Source of the DNA: Mycobacteriales bacterium
GTDB lineage: Bacteria; Actinomycetota; Actinomycetes; JAFAQI01
NCBI GenBank assembly: GCA_035548055.1
Contig: DASZTL010000061.1
Coordinates: 26,827-90,826 of the forward strand
Length of the DNA: 64,000 bases
Reading direction: 5' to 3'
Shown here: piece by piece, positions 58,740 to 64,000 of the stretch
Layout of the letters: every line of letters starts with the position of its first letter
Numbering within the stretch: position 1 is the stretch's first letter
The notes under the pieces: generated by a model
The model's input: only the letters and a program-made list of their open reading frames with translations
The model's database searches: none
What the model was told of the DNA's origin: nothing
Made by a program: the position numbers and the translations under genes

Positions 58740-58763
58740 TGGTGTCGGAGGGGGGACTCGAAC
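58740..58763 (-). mobile_element. 3' fragment of a tRNA (tRNA-Leu-like); probable att site bounding an integrated element
   Basis: Minus strand reads GTTCGAGTCCCCCCTCCGACACCA = T-loop, 3' T-stem, acceptor 3' strand CTCCGAC, discriminator A, CCA; the rest of the tRNA is absent. Confidence 0.85.
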
Positions 58764-58816: not shown

Positions 58817-60085
58817 TCAGCGTGCCCACCCTTCGCGTTCGCGCTGCGCCTGGCCCCGCGGATCGGCGCGCAGGTTGAGGAAGCCCGCACCGGTGAGGAG
58901 CCGACTAGGGCTCGGATGCGCCGACCGTTCGTCGTTTGCGGGCCAAGTGTTGAGAAGAGCAACCCGCCGGGCGATCACGCCGTTGTACATGCCAATCGCC
59001 CGCCGCATCACGTCGGCCACTTCCGCGGGCGTGGGCGCCATCGCTGGGTCGGCCACCTCAGCGCCAACCGCTTCGGCGAGGAGCACTCGCAGGCCGCACT
59101 GCCTGAACTCCCATTCGTCGATCGTGCGGTCACCTTGCCCGGCAGGAGCCGCTGCTGCCTGCCTATCCAGTGAGAGGACAAGACCGAGCGTGGCGAGAGC
59201 GAGAACCGACGCCGCCGCGCTCTGCAACGGAGTCCAGCCGTTGCCTCGCTGCGCGAAAATCGAGCACGCCGTCGCGGCAAAGACGTCGCATGTGAGTTCG
59301 GTGAGCAGCCTGCGATCCCGAGCCGCGACGGCAGCGAGATCGGGCAGGACAGGCACCACCTTCCCAGCCGCGAGCTCCGGCTGAGAATCGAACCTCGGGG
59401 CGTACCACCAACTGTCTGGTTCCACGCCCGCGTGATGCCGCCCGTAGGTCGTCGGGCGTTCTCGCCCGATGTCATGTGCGGAGGCCAACGCCGGGTCGGT
59501 CTCGGAGAGGTTGCTCGCCGTCCGAAGCCGATCCAACACCTGTTCGCGAAGGCGATCGAAGGAGGCCGGATCAGCAGCTTCTAGGTAGTGCAACAGCTCG
59601 TGGGCGACTGCGAACTGCTCCTGCATCGCCACGCCTACCCAGGTCTCGAATGCGCTCTCAGCGTCCTCGATGTAGTCGCGAACGCGGTGCACCCGAAGAA
59701 TCTGATCTGCGTGCGCGGCGAGGACAACCGCCGTGCCGAGGTACCCCCCACAGACACGCCGCACTGCAGCGATTCGAAGCAACAGTGCGTCGATCACCTG
59801 CTCATGTTGTGGGTCATTGAGGACTTTGAAGGTCTGCGAGAACAAGGTCCCCAGGCCAGCGTCATAGACCAGTTGCGTGGCGCCGCTGTGCTGCAGGAGT
59901 GCGGGTAGGGCACGAGCGGTGTGCACGACGGAACTAGGCGGCTCCGGTGCGCCGCTTCCGGAGAACTTCTTGATGGTCGGCCAGAGCATCCGGACGTTTC
60001 GCTCGAGATCCTGCCGGCTTCTGAGCGATAAGTCTCTCTCGGCGTCGGTGCCCCACGTCGTCTCGATCAACTCACGGATCGACAT
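58817..60085 (-). CDS. HExxH zincin-like metallopeptidase (M48/Lit/ImmA-like motif layout)
   Basis: FAVAHELLHYL (59588-59602) and downstream ELTCDVFA (ExxxD); start ATG 60085 or 60112. Confidence 0.7.
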   Translation of the reverse strand: MSIRELIETTWGTDAERDLSLRSRQDLERNVRMLWPTIKKFSGSGAPEPPSSVVHTARALPALLQHSGATQLVYDAGLGTLFSQTFKVLNDPQHEQVIDALLLRIAAVRRVCGGYLGTAVVLAAHADQILRVHRVRDYIEDAESAFETWVGVAMQEQFAVAHELLHYLEAADPASFDRLREQVLDRLRTASNLSETDPALASAHDIGRERPTTYGRHHAGVEPDSWWYAPRFDSQPELAAGKVVPVLPDLAAVAARDRRLLTELTCDVFAATACSIFAQRGNGWTPLQSAAASVLALATLGLVLSLDRQAAAAPAGQGDRTIDEWEFRQCGLRVLLAEAVGAEVADPAMAPTPAEVADVMRRAIGMYNGVIARRVALLNTWPANDERSAHPSPSRLLTGAGFLNLRADPRGQAQREREGWAR

Positions 60086-60095
60086 CGGATGCGGG

Positions 60096-60401
60096 TTAGT
60101 CAGCCTGGCCAAGCGCAGCTATCACTCGCTCTACGGCCTCGACATCCGCGCCGACGATCTCCATGCCGTCGACGGTTACGCGGAAGTTCTTCTTGACCGA
60201 GGCGCGCTCCCGCAACCAGACCTCGACGACTCGTAGCGCGCCACCGCCCCCGCCTAGTGCGACCACTAGTTGGACGGCCGTTTGACCATCGAATGGCCGC
60301 ACCTCGACCGGGTCGAAGCTCGGCAGCCCAAGGGCAACTGACAGATCTTCAAGGTCAGAACGGTCTTCGGCGGGAACACCGACAGCGATCTTCGGAGGCA
60401 T
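60096..60401 (-). CDS. Small protein resembling effector-associated constant component EACC1
   Basis: VQLVVALGGGGGALRVVEVWLRER...FRVTVDGMEI: Gly-rich hydrophobic hairpin, WL.R, then beta strands with DG. Confidence 0.6.
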   Translation of the reverse strand: MPPKIAVGVPAEDRSDLEDLSVALGLPSFDPVEVRPFDGQTAVQLVVALGGGGGALRVVEVWLRERASVKKNFRVTVDGMEIVGADVEAVERVIAALGQAD

Positions 60402-60488
60402 GCCCGATCCTTGCATGGCATGGCTCCGGGCTGGATGACAATGAGGCGTACGGCGCCGGCCGGCGTCTACCGCCGTGTGGTGCGACAG

Positions 60489-61271
60489 TTACGTCGTTCG
60501 GCTCTCGGCAGCCGCGGACACGCCGTAGAACGTGGCTCGAGCCGAGTCGACACGCGCGCGGGCCTCGCGGACCAGATCGAAGTCATGCTCGTTGGGGGGC
60601 ATGTCGCGCACCGGGTGCATCACGCGATTGCGGACGTCGTTGACCTCCTGGATCTCGCTCTTGAAGGCCTTGCCACTGCTGGCGCGGAGGAGCGAAGAGA
60701 AGAGCGCCCAGCGCTTCTCCACGATGATTCCGGTCTCGATGAGGGTGAGGCAGTACCAGGGGTCGTAGCCATCGCGGGCGAGGCCCTCTGCGCGCATCGC
60801 GCCGTCCTTTCGGATGGCCTCGTCGACGCCCTTGAACCACCACGCCCTGGCGTCGGTTCCGTACTCACGCTCAAGCACGTGGCGAACAAGGCGGTGGAGG
60901 TCGACTTCGAACCCGCGCAGCTCCTCGTAGAGGTCTCCGTAGTAGCGACTGGCGGGCCCGTACCGCAAGCAGACCTGTATGTCGCCGGCGTCCTCATGCG
61001 GCAAGGCGTCTTCGAAGGGACGGGCGTGGACGTAGCCGTCGTAGGCGTCCCGGCGTAACTTGAAGCCGCGTTCGTCCTTGACCTTCTCCACCAGCTCGCG
61101 CGTGCCGCTGGGTATCGAGAAGTAAATGTCGCTACGCCGGATCAAGCCTTTGCCGACAGCACGGTCGAGGTAGTCGAGAACCGTGCTGAGCGAGACGCCC
61201 CTTGCGTGCGCTGCCTCTCTCGGCAGGTTCCCAGCCCGCAGCAGTCTTGCGCATTCGTCGGCCGCAGCCAT
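60489..61271 (-). CDS. HTH plus Swt1-like HEPN domain protein (putative RNase)
   Basis: N-terminal GNLPREAAHARGVSLSTVLDYL HTH; ELRGFEVDLHRLVRHVLEREYG...WW; RNRVMH (Rx4H) at 60615-60632; GGAGG RBS. Confidence 0.78.
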   Translation of the reverse strand: MAAADECARLLRAGNLPREAAHARGVSLSTVLDYLDRAVGKGLIRRSDIYFSIPSGTRELVEKVKDERGFKLRRDAYDGYVHARPFEDALPHEDAGDIQVCLRYGPASRYYGDLYEELRGFEVDLHRLVRHVLEREYGTDARAWWFKGVDEAIRKDGAMRAEGLARDGYDPWYCLTLIETGIIVEKRWALFSSLLRASSGKAFKSEIQEVNDVRNRVMHPVRDMPPNEHDFDLVREARARVDSARATFYGVSAAAESRTT

Positions 61272-61387: not shown

Positions 61388-62329
61388 ATGTGGCGATCGC
61401 GTGAGGTGAACCATCCGGAACCGGATGAGTCGCCGCCGAGGGCGGTGCTGTATAGCGAGTACGTCAGGCGCAAGCCTTCCAAGCCTCGGCCGGTCGACAG
61501 CGCCGGGCAGGTCATCCCAATCGCCTTGCTTGACCTGGTTGACCCACTCGACCGGGAGGCGAGGAACCGACTCGTTCTTGCGCTTGAGCAACATCAGCCC
61601 AACGTCGTGGTGACCGACGGAAGGTTCAACCACATCACTGACGTGATGGCCCAGATCGCGATCGAGCACATGGTGAACGCTCGGGCCGACTTGTCACTTC
61701 GCAGTCGCTACCCATCGAGATCGCCCTACCAAGCGTTGGCGGCGATGATTCTTGACCCCGAAGTGCCGCTGGCGTTGGACGCCGTCGGTGCCTGGGTGGA
61801 CTCCTACGCGCGGCTTCCCGGTACATCGTGGCAGCGGGACAAGGAGGCAGGCTTTCTGGCGGCAGTCGACGCAGCCCTGTCCGGCACCATCTTCGCCGTC
61901 CGCGGCCGCGAAATCGTGCTCCGGGAGGATCTTGGCGCCTCGGTCCTGGTCGACACACCGATGGCGGCGTTGCTCACTGCCAACCCCGCCCTACGAGGTG
62001 TTGACGCGAAGCTTCGCGAGGCACTGGCGGAGCTTGATGCCGGCCAAGCAGGCGACGCGGTTACCGACGCTGGCACGGCACTGCAGATGCTGTTGGATCA
62101 CCTTGGGTTCCAGGGCACCCAGCTGGGCGATCAGATAAAGGCGGCGCGCAACGCGGGCTGGCTCGCTGGCATCGACACGCCGCTGGCGACGGCGGTCGAG
62201 AGTATCGCCGCCTGGGTGGCGTCGGTACGCAATCAACGCGGCGATGCACACCACGGTCCACCGCCCGATCTTCGGGATGCGGAACTTGTGGTGCGGGTCG
62301 TCGGTTTGCTGACCCTGCGGTTCGGCTAA
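61388..62329 (+). CDS. Abortive-infection C-terminal (Abi_C, HEPN-like) domain protein
   Basis: EALAELDAGQAGDAVTDAGTAL...VRNQRGDAHHG (Rx6H, 62228-62251); start uncertain (61388 or 61406). Confidence 0.7.
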   Translation: MWRSREVNHPEPDESPPRAVLYSEYVRRKPSKPRPVDSAGQVIPIALLDLVDPLDREARNRLVLALEQHQPNVVVTDGRFNHITDVMAQIAIEHMVNARADLSLRSRYPSRSPYQALAAMILDPEVPLALDAVGAWVDSYARLPGTSWQRDKEAGFLAAVDAALSGTIFAVRGREIVLREDLGASVLVDTPMAALLTANPALRGVDAKLREALAELDAGQAGDAVTDAGTALQMLLDHLGFQGTQLGDQIKAARNAGWLAGIDTPLATAVESIAAWVASVRNQRGDAHHGPPPDLRDAELVVRVVGLLTLRFG

Positions 62330-62815: not shown

Positions 62816-62919
62816 CGATGCCGATGCTGCCGATTGTCCACTTCGGCTGCTGATTGACGGATCTCGGCGGTAACGTTCTAGCCGATCGAAAGACGGGTGG
62901 AGGCCGATCGGGGGAAAGC

Positions 62920-64000
62920 GTGGACGTCTTCAAGATCCACGAGCACCTGATCGACGACTACCGGGCCTTCACCTCAGCCTTCGTCGAAGTCCGCGACCCA
63001 CGGATTCGCGAGTATGTCGATCGCCGCCTAGCCGATGGCATCCAGTGGCCCGACCCTTGGCTGAGCCTGAACCCAAGCTTCGAGTCCGGCGGCACAATCA
63101 CCGACCTCGTCCGAGCGGGACTCCTCGACGCCGAGTGCGAGCGGATCTTCCGCGTCAAGACCGATCGGAACGATGCCGGCGCGCCTCTTACCCTGCACCG
63201 TCACCAGCGCGACGCCGTCGAGGCTGCTCGTTCCGGCGAGTCGTACGTCCTGACCACCGGCACTGGTTCGGGGAAGTCGCTGGCCTACATCCTGCCGATC
63301 GTCGATCGCGTGCTGCGGGAGCGCGCCGCCAACGGGGGTCGCCGGGTTCCCGGAGTCAAGGCGATCGTCGTCTACCCGATGAACGCCCTGGCCAACTCCC
63401 AGATGCACGAGTTGGAAAAGTTCCTGCGGTTTGGCTACCCAGACGGAGGCGAGCCGGTCACCTTCGCTCGCTACACCGGACAGGAAGACCCAGACGACCG
63501 GCGGAAGATCCTCGCCGAACCTCCTGACATCCTGCTCACCAACTACGTGATGCTCGAGCTCGTCATGACCAGGCCCGATGAGCGGCAGCACCTGATCCGG
63601 GCCGCGAGCAACCTCCGATTCCTCGTCCTCGATGAGCTGCACACCTACCGCGGCCGGCAGGGAGCCGACGTCGCGTTGCTGATCCGCCGCCTCCGCGATG
63701 CCTGCGCGTCCGACGCGCTACAGATCGTGGGGACCTCGGCAACGATGGCTTCTGGCGGAACAGTCGCTGACCAACAGCAGGTCGTTGCCGATGTTGCGAC
63801 CCGACTGTTCGGGACGCCGGTCAGCGAACACCGAGTGATCGGTGAGACTCTCCGGCGAGCAACCACCCCTCTTGCCGCCGAGCGCGACGCACTGCGCTCC
63901 TCTGCCCTCGCCGCCGCGTCAGCAGATTCCGCAGCTCGCGGGTACGACGAGCTTGCTGCCGATCCGCTGGCCAGCTGGGTGGAGAGCACGTTCGGTCTCG
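62920..64000 (+). CDS. SF2 DEAD/DEAH-box helicase, 3'-truncated by the window edge (absent from the ORF track because no stop is in the window)
   Basis: Own translation from GTG 62920: MDVFKIHEHLIDDYRAFTSAF...HQRDA...TTGTGSGKS...VYPMNALANSQ...LTNYVMLE...VLDELHTYRGRQGADVA...GTSAT. Confidence 0.92.
   Translation, partial: MDVFKIHEHLIDDYRAFTSAFVEVRDPRIREYVDRRLADGIQWPDPWLSLNPSFESGGTITDLVRAGLLDAECERIFRVKTDRNDAGAPLTLHRHQRDAVEAARSGESYVLTTGTGSGKSLAYILPIVDRVLRERAANGGRRVPGVKAIVVYPMNALANSQMHELEKFLRFGYPDGGEPVTFARYTGQEDPDDRRKILAEPPDILLTNYVMLELVMTRPDERQHLIRAASNLRFLVLDELHTYRGRQGADVALLIRRLRDACASDALQIVGTSATMASGGTVADQQQVVADVATRLFGTPVSEHRVIGETLRRATTPLAAERDALRSSALAAASADSAARGYDELAADPLASWVESTFGL

What the first reader, a model, noticed from the sequence alone, without database searches (positions are those of the whole stretch)
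60489..61271. Unusual HTH-HEPN fusion: RecQ-tail-like HTH joined to a Swt1-type RNase domain
The N-terminus (LLRAGNLPREAAHARGVSLSTVLDYL) resembles the HTH found at the end of RecQ-like helicases. The C-terminus has the Swt1-like HEPN pattern with an intact Rx4H. HEPN RNases are established toxins and effectors in anti-phage systems. A DNA-binding sensor fused to an RNase could couple detection of phage DNA structures to RNA cleavage. The gene is co-oriented with, and 87 nt upstream of, the EACC1-like/peptidase pair, so all three may form one system.
Basis: partly seen in the sequence, partly recalled or inferred. Interest (0 to 1): 0.62.

Follow-up and report, generated by a model that had tools for sequence, protein, structure and literature searches.

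The report
Stand-alone HTH-HEPN RNase gene family
The gene is real and belongs to a widespread but unstudied family of about 250-residue proteins that join a small DNA-binding-type domain to a predicted RNA-cutting (HEPN) domain; it is most likely a self-contained suicide or anti-phage RNase, not part of a three-gene system with its neighbours.

Summary
The ORF at 60489-61271 (-), 260 aa, is real and both domain calls hold. The query alone scores just below Pfam's thresholds (HEPN_Swt1 24.2 bits, cut-off 27.5; HTH_40 17.0, cut-off 27). At family level the calls are clear: of 129 full-length relatives, 92 hit HEPN_Swt1, 66 hit HTH_40 and 124 hit PADLOC's candidate-defence component PDC-M34B. 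The motif R214-N-x-V-M-H219-P is about 96% conserved.

This is not a one-off fusion. HTH plus HEPN is the fixed architecture of a family with 508 clusters at 50% identity, every named member I looked up a "hypothetical protein", almost all from metagenomes. The gene is accessory: absent from 60 related genomes, and no full-length copy in 400 genomes of the phylum.

Relatives often sit beside restriction-modification or other defence genes, but 45 loci share no partner. The EACC1-like/peptidase pair occurs elsewhere without this gene, and this gene elsewhere without the pair, so the three-gene system is not supported.

AlphaFold models are confident and place the motif where HEPN domains have it, but Foldseek gave no significant match to a solved HEPN structure.

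Best reading: a stand-alone, self-regulated HEPN RNase of the abortive-infection or toxin type. Activity and defence role are untested. Interest is modest.

The parts
60489..61271 (-). HTH-HEPN gene, 260 aa plus stop
   Evidence: ORF. It has 16 relatives at 30-73% identity in the nr90 collection and 508 clusters at 50% identity.
61068..61271 (-). N-terminal HTH domain, residues 1-68 (helices 3-12, 17-24, 28-40, 46-50, 55-68)
   Evidence: HTH_40 E=7e-3 and HTH_29 E=2e-3 for the query. 66 of 129 family members hit HTH_40, best 2.6e-9. Foldseek: RecQ C-terminal domain 3iuo, prob 0.44; a viral helicase over 105 columns, prob 0.99. pLDDT is about 90.
60954..61067 (-). Linker, residues 69-106; part is poorly predicted (74-79, pLDDT below 50) and two short helices follow
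   Evidence: This region is variable in the family alignment.
60522..60953 (-). Swt1/Abi2-clade HEPN domain, residues 107-250
   Evidence: HEPN_Swt1 E=4.2e-5, 24.2 bits (cut-off 27.5), residues 122-224. 92 of 129 relatives hit it, best 4.4e-8. PDC-M34B is hit by 124 of 129, best 1.2e-16. The domain-only AF2 model has pLDDT 91.3.
60615..60632 (-). Catalytic-type motif R214-N-R-V-M-H219
   Evidence: R 97%, N 86%, M 94%, H 96% and P220 95% conserved in 129 full-length relatives. The motif lies at the end of helix 200-218 and the start of the loop to helix 228-249, the position described for HEPN in PMC3710099.
60894..60908 (-). Conserved E122-x3-H126 in the first long HEPN helix
   Evidence: E122 98% and H126 91% conserved. 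This is a candidate for the conserved acidic active-site residue of HEPN domains; the assignment is an inference.

Best explanation
The gene encodes a stand-alone two-domain protein. A small tri-helical HTH domain of the HTH_40 type is joined by a flexible linker to a Swt1/Abi2-clade HEPN domain with a conserved R-N-x-V-M-H-P motif. Shown here: the gene, the two-domain family, the conservation of the motif and of the N-terminal domain, its patchy accessory distribution, its frequent but not obligatory position beside restriction-modification and defence genes, and the lack of any conserved partner gene. Inferred from what is established for HEPN domains (PMC3710099): the protein dimerises through the HEPN domains to form an RNase site, is kept latent, and when triggered (phage infection or failure of a neighbouring restriction system) cleaves cellular and/or phage RNA, causing growth arrest or abortive infection. 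Because there is no conserved antitoxin or partner, control must be built in. The fused HTH domain is the obvious candidate, either binding nucleic acid as the trigger or sensor, or repressing or occluding the RNase. In this genome the gene is one independent cassette in an island that also holds an EACC1-like/HExxH-peptidase pair, an Abi_C-like HEPN gene and a DruE-like helicase.
For: Family and architecture. Full-length matches dominate among 508 clusters, and both the N- and C-terminal regions are conserved. Domain identities. Model: pLDDT 89.6 and pTM 0.80; domain-only pLDDT 91.3. The motif sits at the end of helix 3, as in HEPN. The same HEPN module is shuffled onto TPR, Card1-nuclease+DndB, GmrSD_N, zinc-finger-like and PLD-like fronts, which is typical of defence effectors. 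Accessory status: 0 of 60 relatives; 0 of 400 phylum genomes carry a full-length copy. Defence context: type IIG RM + PLD-SNF2 (L001); C5 methylase/Vsr/Mrr-helicase/GHKL (L002); Eco29kI RM (L005, L006); HsdM (L020, L025, L063); GmrSD_N-HEPN (L045). No conserved partner among large or small ORFs. The window's island context is shown.
Against: No experiment exists for any member, and the held library has no paper on this architecture. The query alone is below Pfam's gathering scores for both domains. Foldseek found no significant solved HEPN match: best are AF_0298 HEPN prob 0.47 and Csm6 HEPN TMq 0.41. Some relatives lie among housekeeping genes such as sulfatases, Cpn60 and MreB, so the defence link is an enrichment judged by eye, without a statistical control. 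No operator-like motif is conserved upstream. No terminator separates the gene from the downstream pair, so read-through transcription is possible.
Confidence: 0.55

Rival explanations
1. One reading: the HTH-HEPN protein, the EACC1-like protein and the HExxH peptidase form one three-gene defence system transcribed as an operon.
For: The three genes are co-oriented. The gap is 72-87 nt, and no terminator-like hairpin is predicted. One relative (L003) has a U49-like HExxH peptidase with a small upstream gene 3-5 kb away.
Against: The peptidase plus its roughly 100-aa partner recur as a pair in three independent contexts with no HTH-HEPN within 6 kb. No homologue of either is found in 82 other loci holding relatives of this gene. 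The L003 pair is on the opposite strand behind two transposases, and it resembles the window's peptidase only around HExxH (E=0.023).
Confidence: 0.06
2. It is mainly a transcriptional regulator of adjacent defence genes, in the way BrxR or CapW regulate theirs. The HTH binds an operator, and the HEPN domain serves as a sensor or RNA-level modulator rather than a toxin.
For: There is an N-terminal HTH. The gene is divergent from another defence-type gene here (Abi_C-like, 116-nt gap) and from a GHKL ATPase gene in three close relatives, L002, L003 and L006.
Against: The neighbouring genes differ between loci. No conserved palindrome or shared motif lies upstream. The catalytic R/N/H motif is 96-97% conserved, which is not expected for a non-catalytic sensor.
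Confidence: 0.15
3. It is a fail-safe RNase that depends on a neighbouring restriction-modification enzyme (PrrC/EcoprrI logic). It would be held inactive by contact with the R-M complex and released when phage neutralises restriction.
For: R-M genes are the most frequent neighbours. PMC3710099 proposes this logic for Abi2/Swt1 HEPN proteins embedded in R-M operons.
Against: The R-M types differ (IIG, Eco29kI, type I), so no single partner fits. Many loci, including this window, show no adjacent R-M genes.
Confidence: 0.12
4. It is a non-defence RNA-processing or stress-response RNase that happens to lie in variable regions.
For: Several relatives lie among housekeeping genes. No phage or plasmid copies were found.
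Against: The gene has an extremely patchy distribution and sits in an island here. It resembles a PADLOC candidate component.
Confidence: 0.08

Closest known systems
Bacterial Swt1-like / Abi2-clade HEPN proteins (Pfam PF18731; Anantharaman et al. 2013, PMC3710099)
   Same: The HEPN domain has an R-N-x3-H motif. It shows profile similarity at family level. It occurs in R-M and defence islands, and it is modularly fused to diverse N-terminal domains.
   Different: The 2013 catalogue lists fusions to TM, PLD, ParB, AAA+, SNF2, STAND/TPR, Zn-ribbon and the giant MTES_1575 protein with wHTH. It does not list a compact N-terminal HTH_40 + HEPN protein. The query itself scores 24.2 bits, below the 27.5 gathering score.
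PADLOC candidate system PDC-M34 (M34A + M34B), untested
   Same: The HEPN domain matches the M34B profiles: query E=1.8e-6, and 124 of 129 relatives match, best 1.2e-16.
   Different: M34B profiles are 185-192 positions long, and only positions about 51-168 align. No M34A partner is detected among the neighbours. Here an HTH domain is fused and there is no partner gene.
Single-gene lactococcal abortive-infection proteins AbiD/AbiD1/AbiF (Pfam Abi_2), grouped with Swt1 in the same HEPN clade in PMC3710099
   Same: All are stand-alone proteins with an N-terminal region plus a C-terminal Rx4H HEPN domain, and they act without a dedicated antitoxin (own knowledge plus PMC3710099).
   Different: No Abi_2 Pfam match was found in the query or the family. 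The N-terminal domain differs, and no phenotype is known.
HTH_40 (PF14493) C-terminal tails of RecQ/UvrD-type helicases, e.g. PDB 3iuo
   Same: There is sequence-profile similarity in 66 of 129 relatives and a weak fold match.
   Different: Here the domain is N-terminal and attached to an RNase, not a helicase. The function of HTH_40 itself is not established.

Membership tests
HEPN superfamily, Swt1-like clade (PF18731) | Profile match at or above Pfam's gathering score (27.5 bits) | tested here: inconclusive
   The query scores 24.2 bits, E=4.2e-5, below the cut-off. 92 of 129 relatives match at E<=0.01, best 4.4e-8. A related TPR-HEPN protein (L062; phmmer E=1e-15 to the query) scores 33.8 bits, above the cut-off.
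HEPN superfamily, Swt1-like clade (PF18731) | Conserved Rx4-6H motif | tested here: met
   R214-N-R-V-M-H219 is present; R is 97% and H 96% conserved in 129 relatives.
HEPN superfamily, Swt1-like clade (PF18731) | Four-helix up-down bundle with an insert between helices 2 and 3, and the motif at the end of helix 3 | tested here: inconclusive
   The helix order and motif position in the AF2 models fit. Foldseek against the PDB gave no significant HEPN hit: 2hsb prob 0.47; Csm6 5yjc_B TMq 0.41, prob 0.16.
HEPN superfamily, Swt1-like clade (PF18731) | Metal-independent endoRNase activity | not testable with these tools
   This needs a biochemical assay.
HTH_40 (PF14493) | Profile match at or above the gathering score (27 bits) | tested here: inconclusive
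   The query scores 17.0 bits, E=7e-3. 66 of 129 relatives match, best 2.6e-9. Relative P0003 carries a precomputed PF14493 hit.
HTH_40 (PF14493) | Fold like the RecQ C-terminal domain (PDB 3iuo) | tested here: inconclusive
   Foldseek: 3iuo prob 0.44, TMt 0.45, rmsd 5.4 over 104 columns, E=3.7. BFVD helicase hit: prob 0.99, E=0.66.
PADLOC PDC-M34 two-gene candidate system | M34B-type HEPN component | tested here: met
   E=1.8e-6 over profile positions 51-161 of 185. 124 of 129 relatives match.
PADLOC PDC-M34 two-gene candidate system | Adjacent M34A partner gene | tested here: not met
   The four adjacent genes have no PADLOC hit at all; the helicase hits only DruE-type and other helicase models, not M34A. 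Relatives share no conserved adjacent ORF.
AbiD/AbiF (Pfam Abi_2) | Profile match to Abi_2 | tested here: not met
   Abi_2 is absent from the query's Pfam hits (E up to 1) and from the listed top 25 of the 27 families matched by relatives.
HEPN-MNT or other toxin-antitoxin pair | Conserved adjacent antitoxin gene | tested here: not met
   No recurrent neighbour was found among ORFs of 80 aa or more within 5 kb, or among ORFs of 25-110 aa within 400 nt, in 45 loci.
Three-gene system with the EACC1-like/HExxH-peptidase cassette | Conserved linkage across genomes | tested here: not met
   0 of 82 other loci holding relatives of this gene carry the cassette. 0 of 3 independent cassette contexts carry an HTH-HEPN gene.

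The most novel reading that the evidence does not exclude
HTH_40-HEPN proteins are a previously unrecognised single-gene anti-phage system. The helicase-tail-type HTH domain directly recognises invading nucleic acid, or a phage DNA/RNA structure, and thereby licenses the fused HEPN RNase. This would also give a first function to the HTH_40 domain. It may be the fused counterpart of the split 'small HTH protein(s) + Swt1-like HEPN' cassettes noted elsewhere in this scan.
Probability: 0.25. Interest if true: 0.55.

Novelty: new variant of a known kind. Interest (0 to 1): 0.33.

Why it matters
HEPN RNases are a major class of bacterial suicide and immune effectors, yet most clades outside CRISPR and a few Abi systems are untested. 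This family is compact (about 250 aa), has no partner gene and is widespread in environmental bacteria. That makes it a convenient system for asking how a HEPN RNase is kept silent and switched on by a fused nucleic-acid-binding domain. For the annotation of this genome, the result separates one island into independent cassettes rather than one large new system.

Tried and rejected
- **PDB by sequence:** a phmmer search with the query and an hmmsearch with the family profile found only HTH-type and designed-repeat hits, and no HEPN structure.
- **Foldseek:** the whole model against PDB and BFVD, and a separately predicted C-terminal domain against PDB, gave nothing significant.
- **GTDB genome scan:** A narrower one gave only 5 loci.
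- **Viral contigs, phage records, plasmid records:** no relatives.
- **Conserved operator or palindrome upstream:** none.
- **Terminator or stable hairpin between the HEPN gene and the EACC1-like gene:** none; z=0.43.
- **Separately encoded copies of the N-terminal HTH next to HEPN-only relatives:** none in the loci held.
- **Full tRNA matching the island-edge fragment:** not present in this incomplete assembly.
- **Literature:** searches for the architecture, PF18731, PF14493 and PDC-M34 returned nothing relevant beyond PMC3710099.

Full report
**Observation.** The ORF at 60489-61271 on the minus strand is present as described: ATG start, 260 codons, TAA stop. GGAGGA lies 3 nt before the ATG. 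The motif R214-N-R-V-M-H219 is intact (window 60632-60615).

**Domain identity.**
- The query alone gives sub-threshold Pfam hits. HEPN_Swt1 scores 24.2 bits (cut-off 27.5, E=4.2e-5, residues 122-224). HTH_40 scores 17.0 bits (cut-off 27, residues 8-64). HTH_29 also hits.
- PADLOC gives PDC-M34B at E=1.8e-6 over the HEPN part only. NCBIfam and the PDB sequence search give nothing useful.
- The word-indexed search of 5.8 billion proteins finds only 16 relatives.
- The exhaustive HMMER search of the 50%-identity representatives finds 508 proteins at E<=1e-3 and 262 at E<=1e-10. Nearly all are 240-260 aa and aligned end to end.
- Of 129 full-length members, 92 hit HEPN_Swt1 (best 4.4e-8) and 66 hit HTH_40 (best 2.6e-9). 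The remaining N-terminal hits are to sigma-70 region 4, LuxR, resolvase-type and similar small HTH models.
- 124 of the 129 hit PDC-M34B, best 1.2e-16.
- The R-N-x-V-M-H-P motif is 86-97% conserved position by position. E122, H126, W144, W145, R154 and W188 are also conserved. In the N-terminal domain G14, P17, Y34, L35, G40, G42, S47 and R58 are conserved.

The combination, however, is the defining architecture of a family, not a singular fusion.

**Structure.**
- AlphaFold2 with the 17-sequence alignment gives a confident all-helical model: pLDDT 89.6, pTM 0.80.
- It shows an N-terminal five-helix HTH module (residues 3-68), a partly disordered linker, and a C-terminal bundle.
- In the bundle, the motif lies at the end of helix 200-218 and in the loop leading to helix 228-249. 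Short helices are inserted between the second and third core helices. This is the layout that PMC3710099 describes for HEPN domains.
- Foldseek gave no significant match. With the whole model, the AF_0298 HEPN protein (2hsb, prob 0.47) and the RecQ C-terminal domain (3iuo, the HTH_40 structure, prob 0.44) appear among noise.
- In BFVD the top hit is a viral DEAD/SNF2-like helicase (prob 0.99, 105 columns; which part of it aligns was not shown).
- A separately predicted C-terminal domain (pLDDT 91.3) gave only Csm6 HEPN at TMq 0.41, prob 0.16.

The HEPN assignment rests on profiles, the motif and the helix topology.

**Distribution.**
- The gene is absent from 60 genomes of the same genus, family, order and class.
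- No full-length copy exists in 400 genomes sampled across the phylum. Six of those carry the HEPN module in other, longer or shorter proteins.
- None is found in IMG/VR, in 50,697 phage records or in 72,556 plasmids.
- Full-length relatives occur in MAGs of Acidobacteriota and Planctomycetota. HEPN-only or short matches occur in Alphaproteobacteria, Verrucomicrobia and Nitrospinota MAGs. Many metagenome contigs also carry relatives.
- The three of the ten looked-up members that carry a name, and the one named relative, are called 'hypothetical protein'.
- The held literature has nothing on this architecture.
- The 2013 HEPN survey lists many fusions of the bacterial Swt1-like clade but not this one.

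**Context and partners.**
- The closest relatives (47-69% identity) lie next to the following:
  - L001: a type IIG R-M enzyme and a PLD-SNF2 helicase.
  - L002: a C5 methylase, Vsr, an Mrr-helicase and a GHKL ATPase.
  - L003: a GHKL ATPase and transposases.
  - L005, L006: Eco29kI-type R-M systems.
  - L004: an S8 peptidase.
- More distant members lie next to HsdM in L020, L025 and L063, and next to a GmrSD_N-HEPN protein in L045. Others lie between sulfatase genes or near Cpn60 and MreB.
- I ran an all-against-all comparison of every ORF of 80 aa or more within 5 kb in 45 member loci. The only neighbour recurring three times is the divergent GHKL ATPase of three closely related loci.
- Small ORFs within 400 nt show no conserved family either.
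- The family thus has no obligate partner. The association with R-M and defence genes is recurrent but was judged without a statistical control.

**The three-gene hypothesis.**
- The 431-aa HExxH protein has five relatives. In three independent contexts it keeps its roughly 100-aa upstream partner, but the next gene differs. No HTH-HEPN relative lies within 6 kb, by tblastn or by a family HMM on six-frame ORFs.
- Conversely, none of the window's four neighbours has a homologue in any of the 82 other loci that hold relatives of this gene. The four are the 431-aa peptidase, the 106-aa EACC1-like protein, the Abi_C-like protein and the SCO5918-family protein.
- The U49-like peptidase near the L003 relative resembles the window's peptidase only around HExxH (E=0.023). 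It lies on the other strand behind two transposases.
- No terminator or unusually stable hairpin lies in the 72-nt gap, so read-through transcription cannot be excluded.
- Functional linkage is not supported.

**Mechanism.**
- Shown: a conserved two-domain protein with a catalytic-type HEPN motif under strong conservation, accessory and island-borne, without a partner gene. Its HEPN module is also found fused to TPR, Card1-nuclease+DndB, GmrSD_N, zinc-finger-like and PLD-like fronts.
- Inferred from established HEPN biology (PMC3710099): dimerisation to form an RNase site, latent activity, and RNA cleavage leading to growth arrest or abortive infection.
- Because no antitoxin-like neighbour exists, control is most likely intramolecular, with the HTH domain as sensor or brake.
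- A pure regulator role is less likely. The catalytic residues are conserved, neighbours vary, and no upstream motif is shared.
- A PrrC-like dependence on an R-M partner is possible in some loci but cannot be general, since the R-M types differ and are often absent.

**Verdict.** This is a real, conserved but uncharacterised HTH_40-HEPN family member. It is best filed as a new architectural variant within the known kind 'HEPN RNase effectors of defence islands', and it is related at domain level to the untested PADLOC candidate PDC-M34B. The three-gene system is not supported. Interest is modest: a good candidate for a simple single-gene test, not a surprise to specialists.

Noticed in passing
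window 61388-62329 (+): The divergent neighbour, 116 nt from the HTH-HEPN start, has weak DUF4145 (E=2.8e-4) and Abi_C (E=6.5e-4) hits at its C-terminus. It is probably a second, unrelated HEPN-type protein. It has no homologue in any other HTH-HEPN locus.
   Followed up: partly
window 58740-58763 (-): A 24-nt tRNA 3' end (GTTCGAGTCCCCCCTCCGACACCA) lies at the boundary between the sugar ABC-transporter genes and the island. It is probably an att remnant of an integrated element. No full tRNA gene occurs in the window, and there is no second copy in this incomplete assembly.
   Followed up: partly
window 62854-64000 (+) and L084 4681-9423: A DruE-like DEAD/DEAH helicase ORF (PADLOC DruE3, E=5e-47) runs for more than 1581 aa to the end of the contig. 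A 138-aa SCO5918-family protein (NCBIfam E=4e-15) precedes it. This may be a Druantia-type or related helicase module, cut off by the assembly.
   Followed up: partly
window 58820-60416 (-); L085-L090: The 431-aa protein has an HELLH motif. With its roughly 100-aa upstream partner it forms a rare pair that is conserved in three other contexts: next to an integrase/RES-Xre TA, next to MOSC/GmrSD_C/Ku, and one unannotated.
   Followed up: partly
L070 2997-5288, L074 1713-4016, L069 8063-10384: Proteins of about 770 aa (two of the three; L069 has no Pfam hit) combine a Card1-like endonuclease domain (weak), a DndB/DGQHR-like domain and a C-terminal HEPN closely related to this family. I have not seen this architecture described.
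   Followed up: no
L045 7277-9871: A GmrSD_N (DUF262) + Swt1-like HEPN fusion protein of 865 aa lies directly upstream of, and co-oriented with, an HTH-HEPN family member. Two HEPN_Swt1-type genes are therefore in tandem.
   Followed up: no
L002 5342-7657, L003 3338-4084, L006 2-334: In three close relatives' loci a GHKL (HATPase_c_3) protein gene lies divergent from the HTH-HEPN gene. It is the only neighbour that recurs. The intergenic DNA is not conserved.
   Followed up: partly
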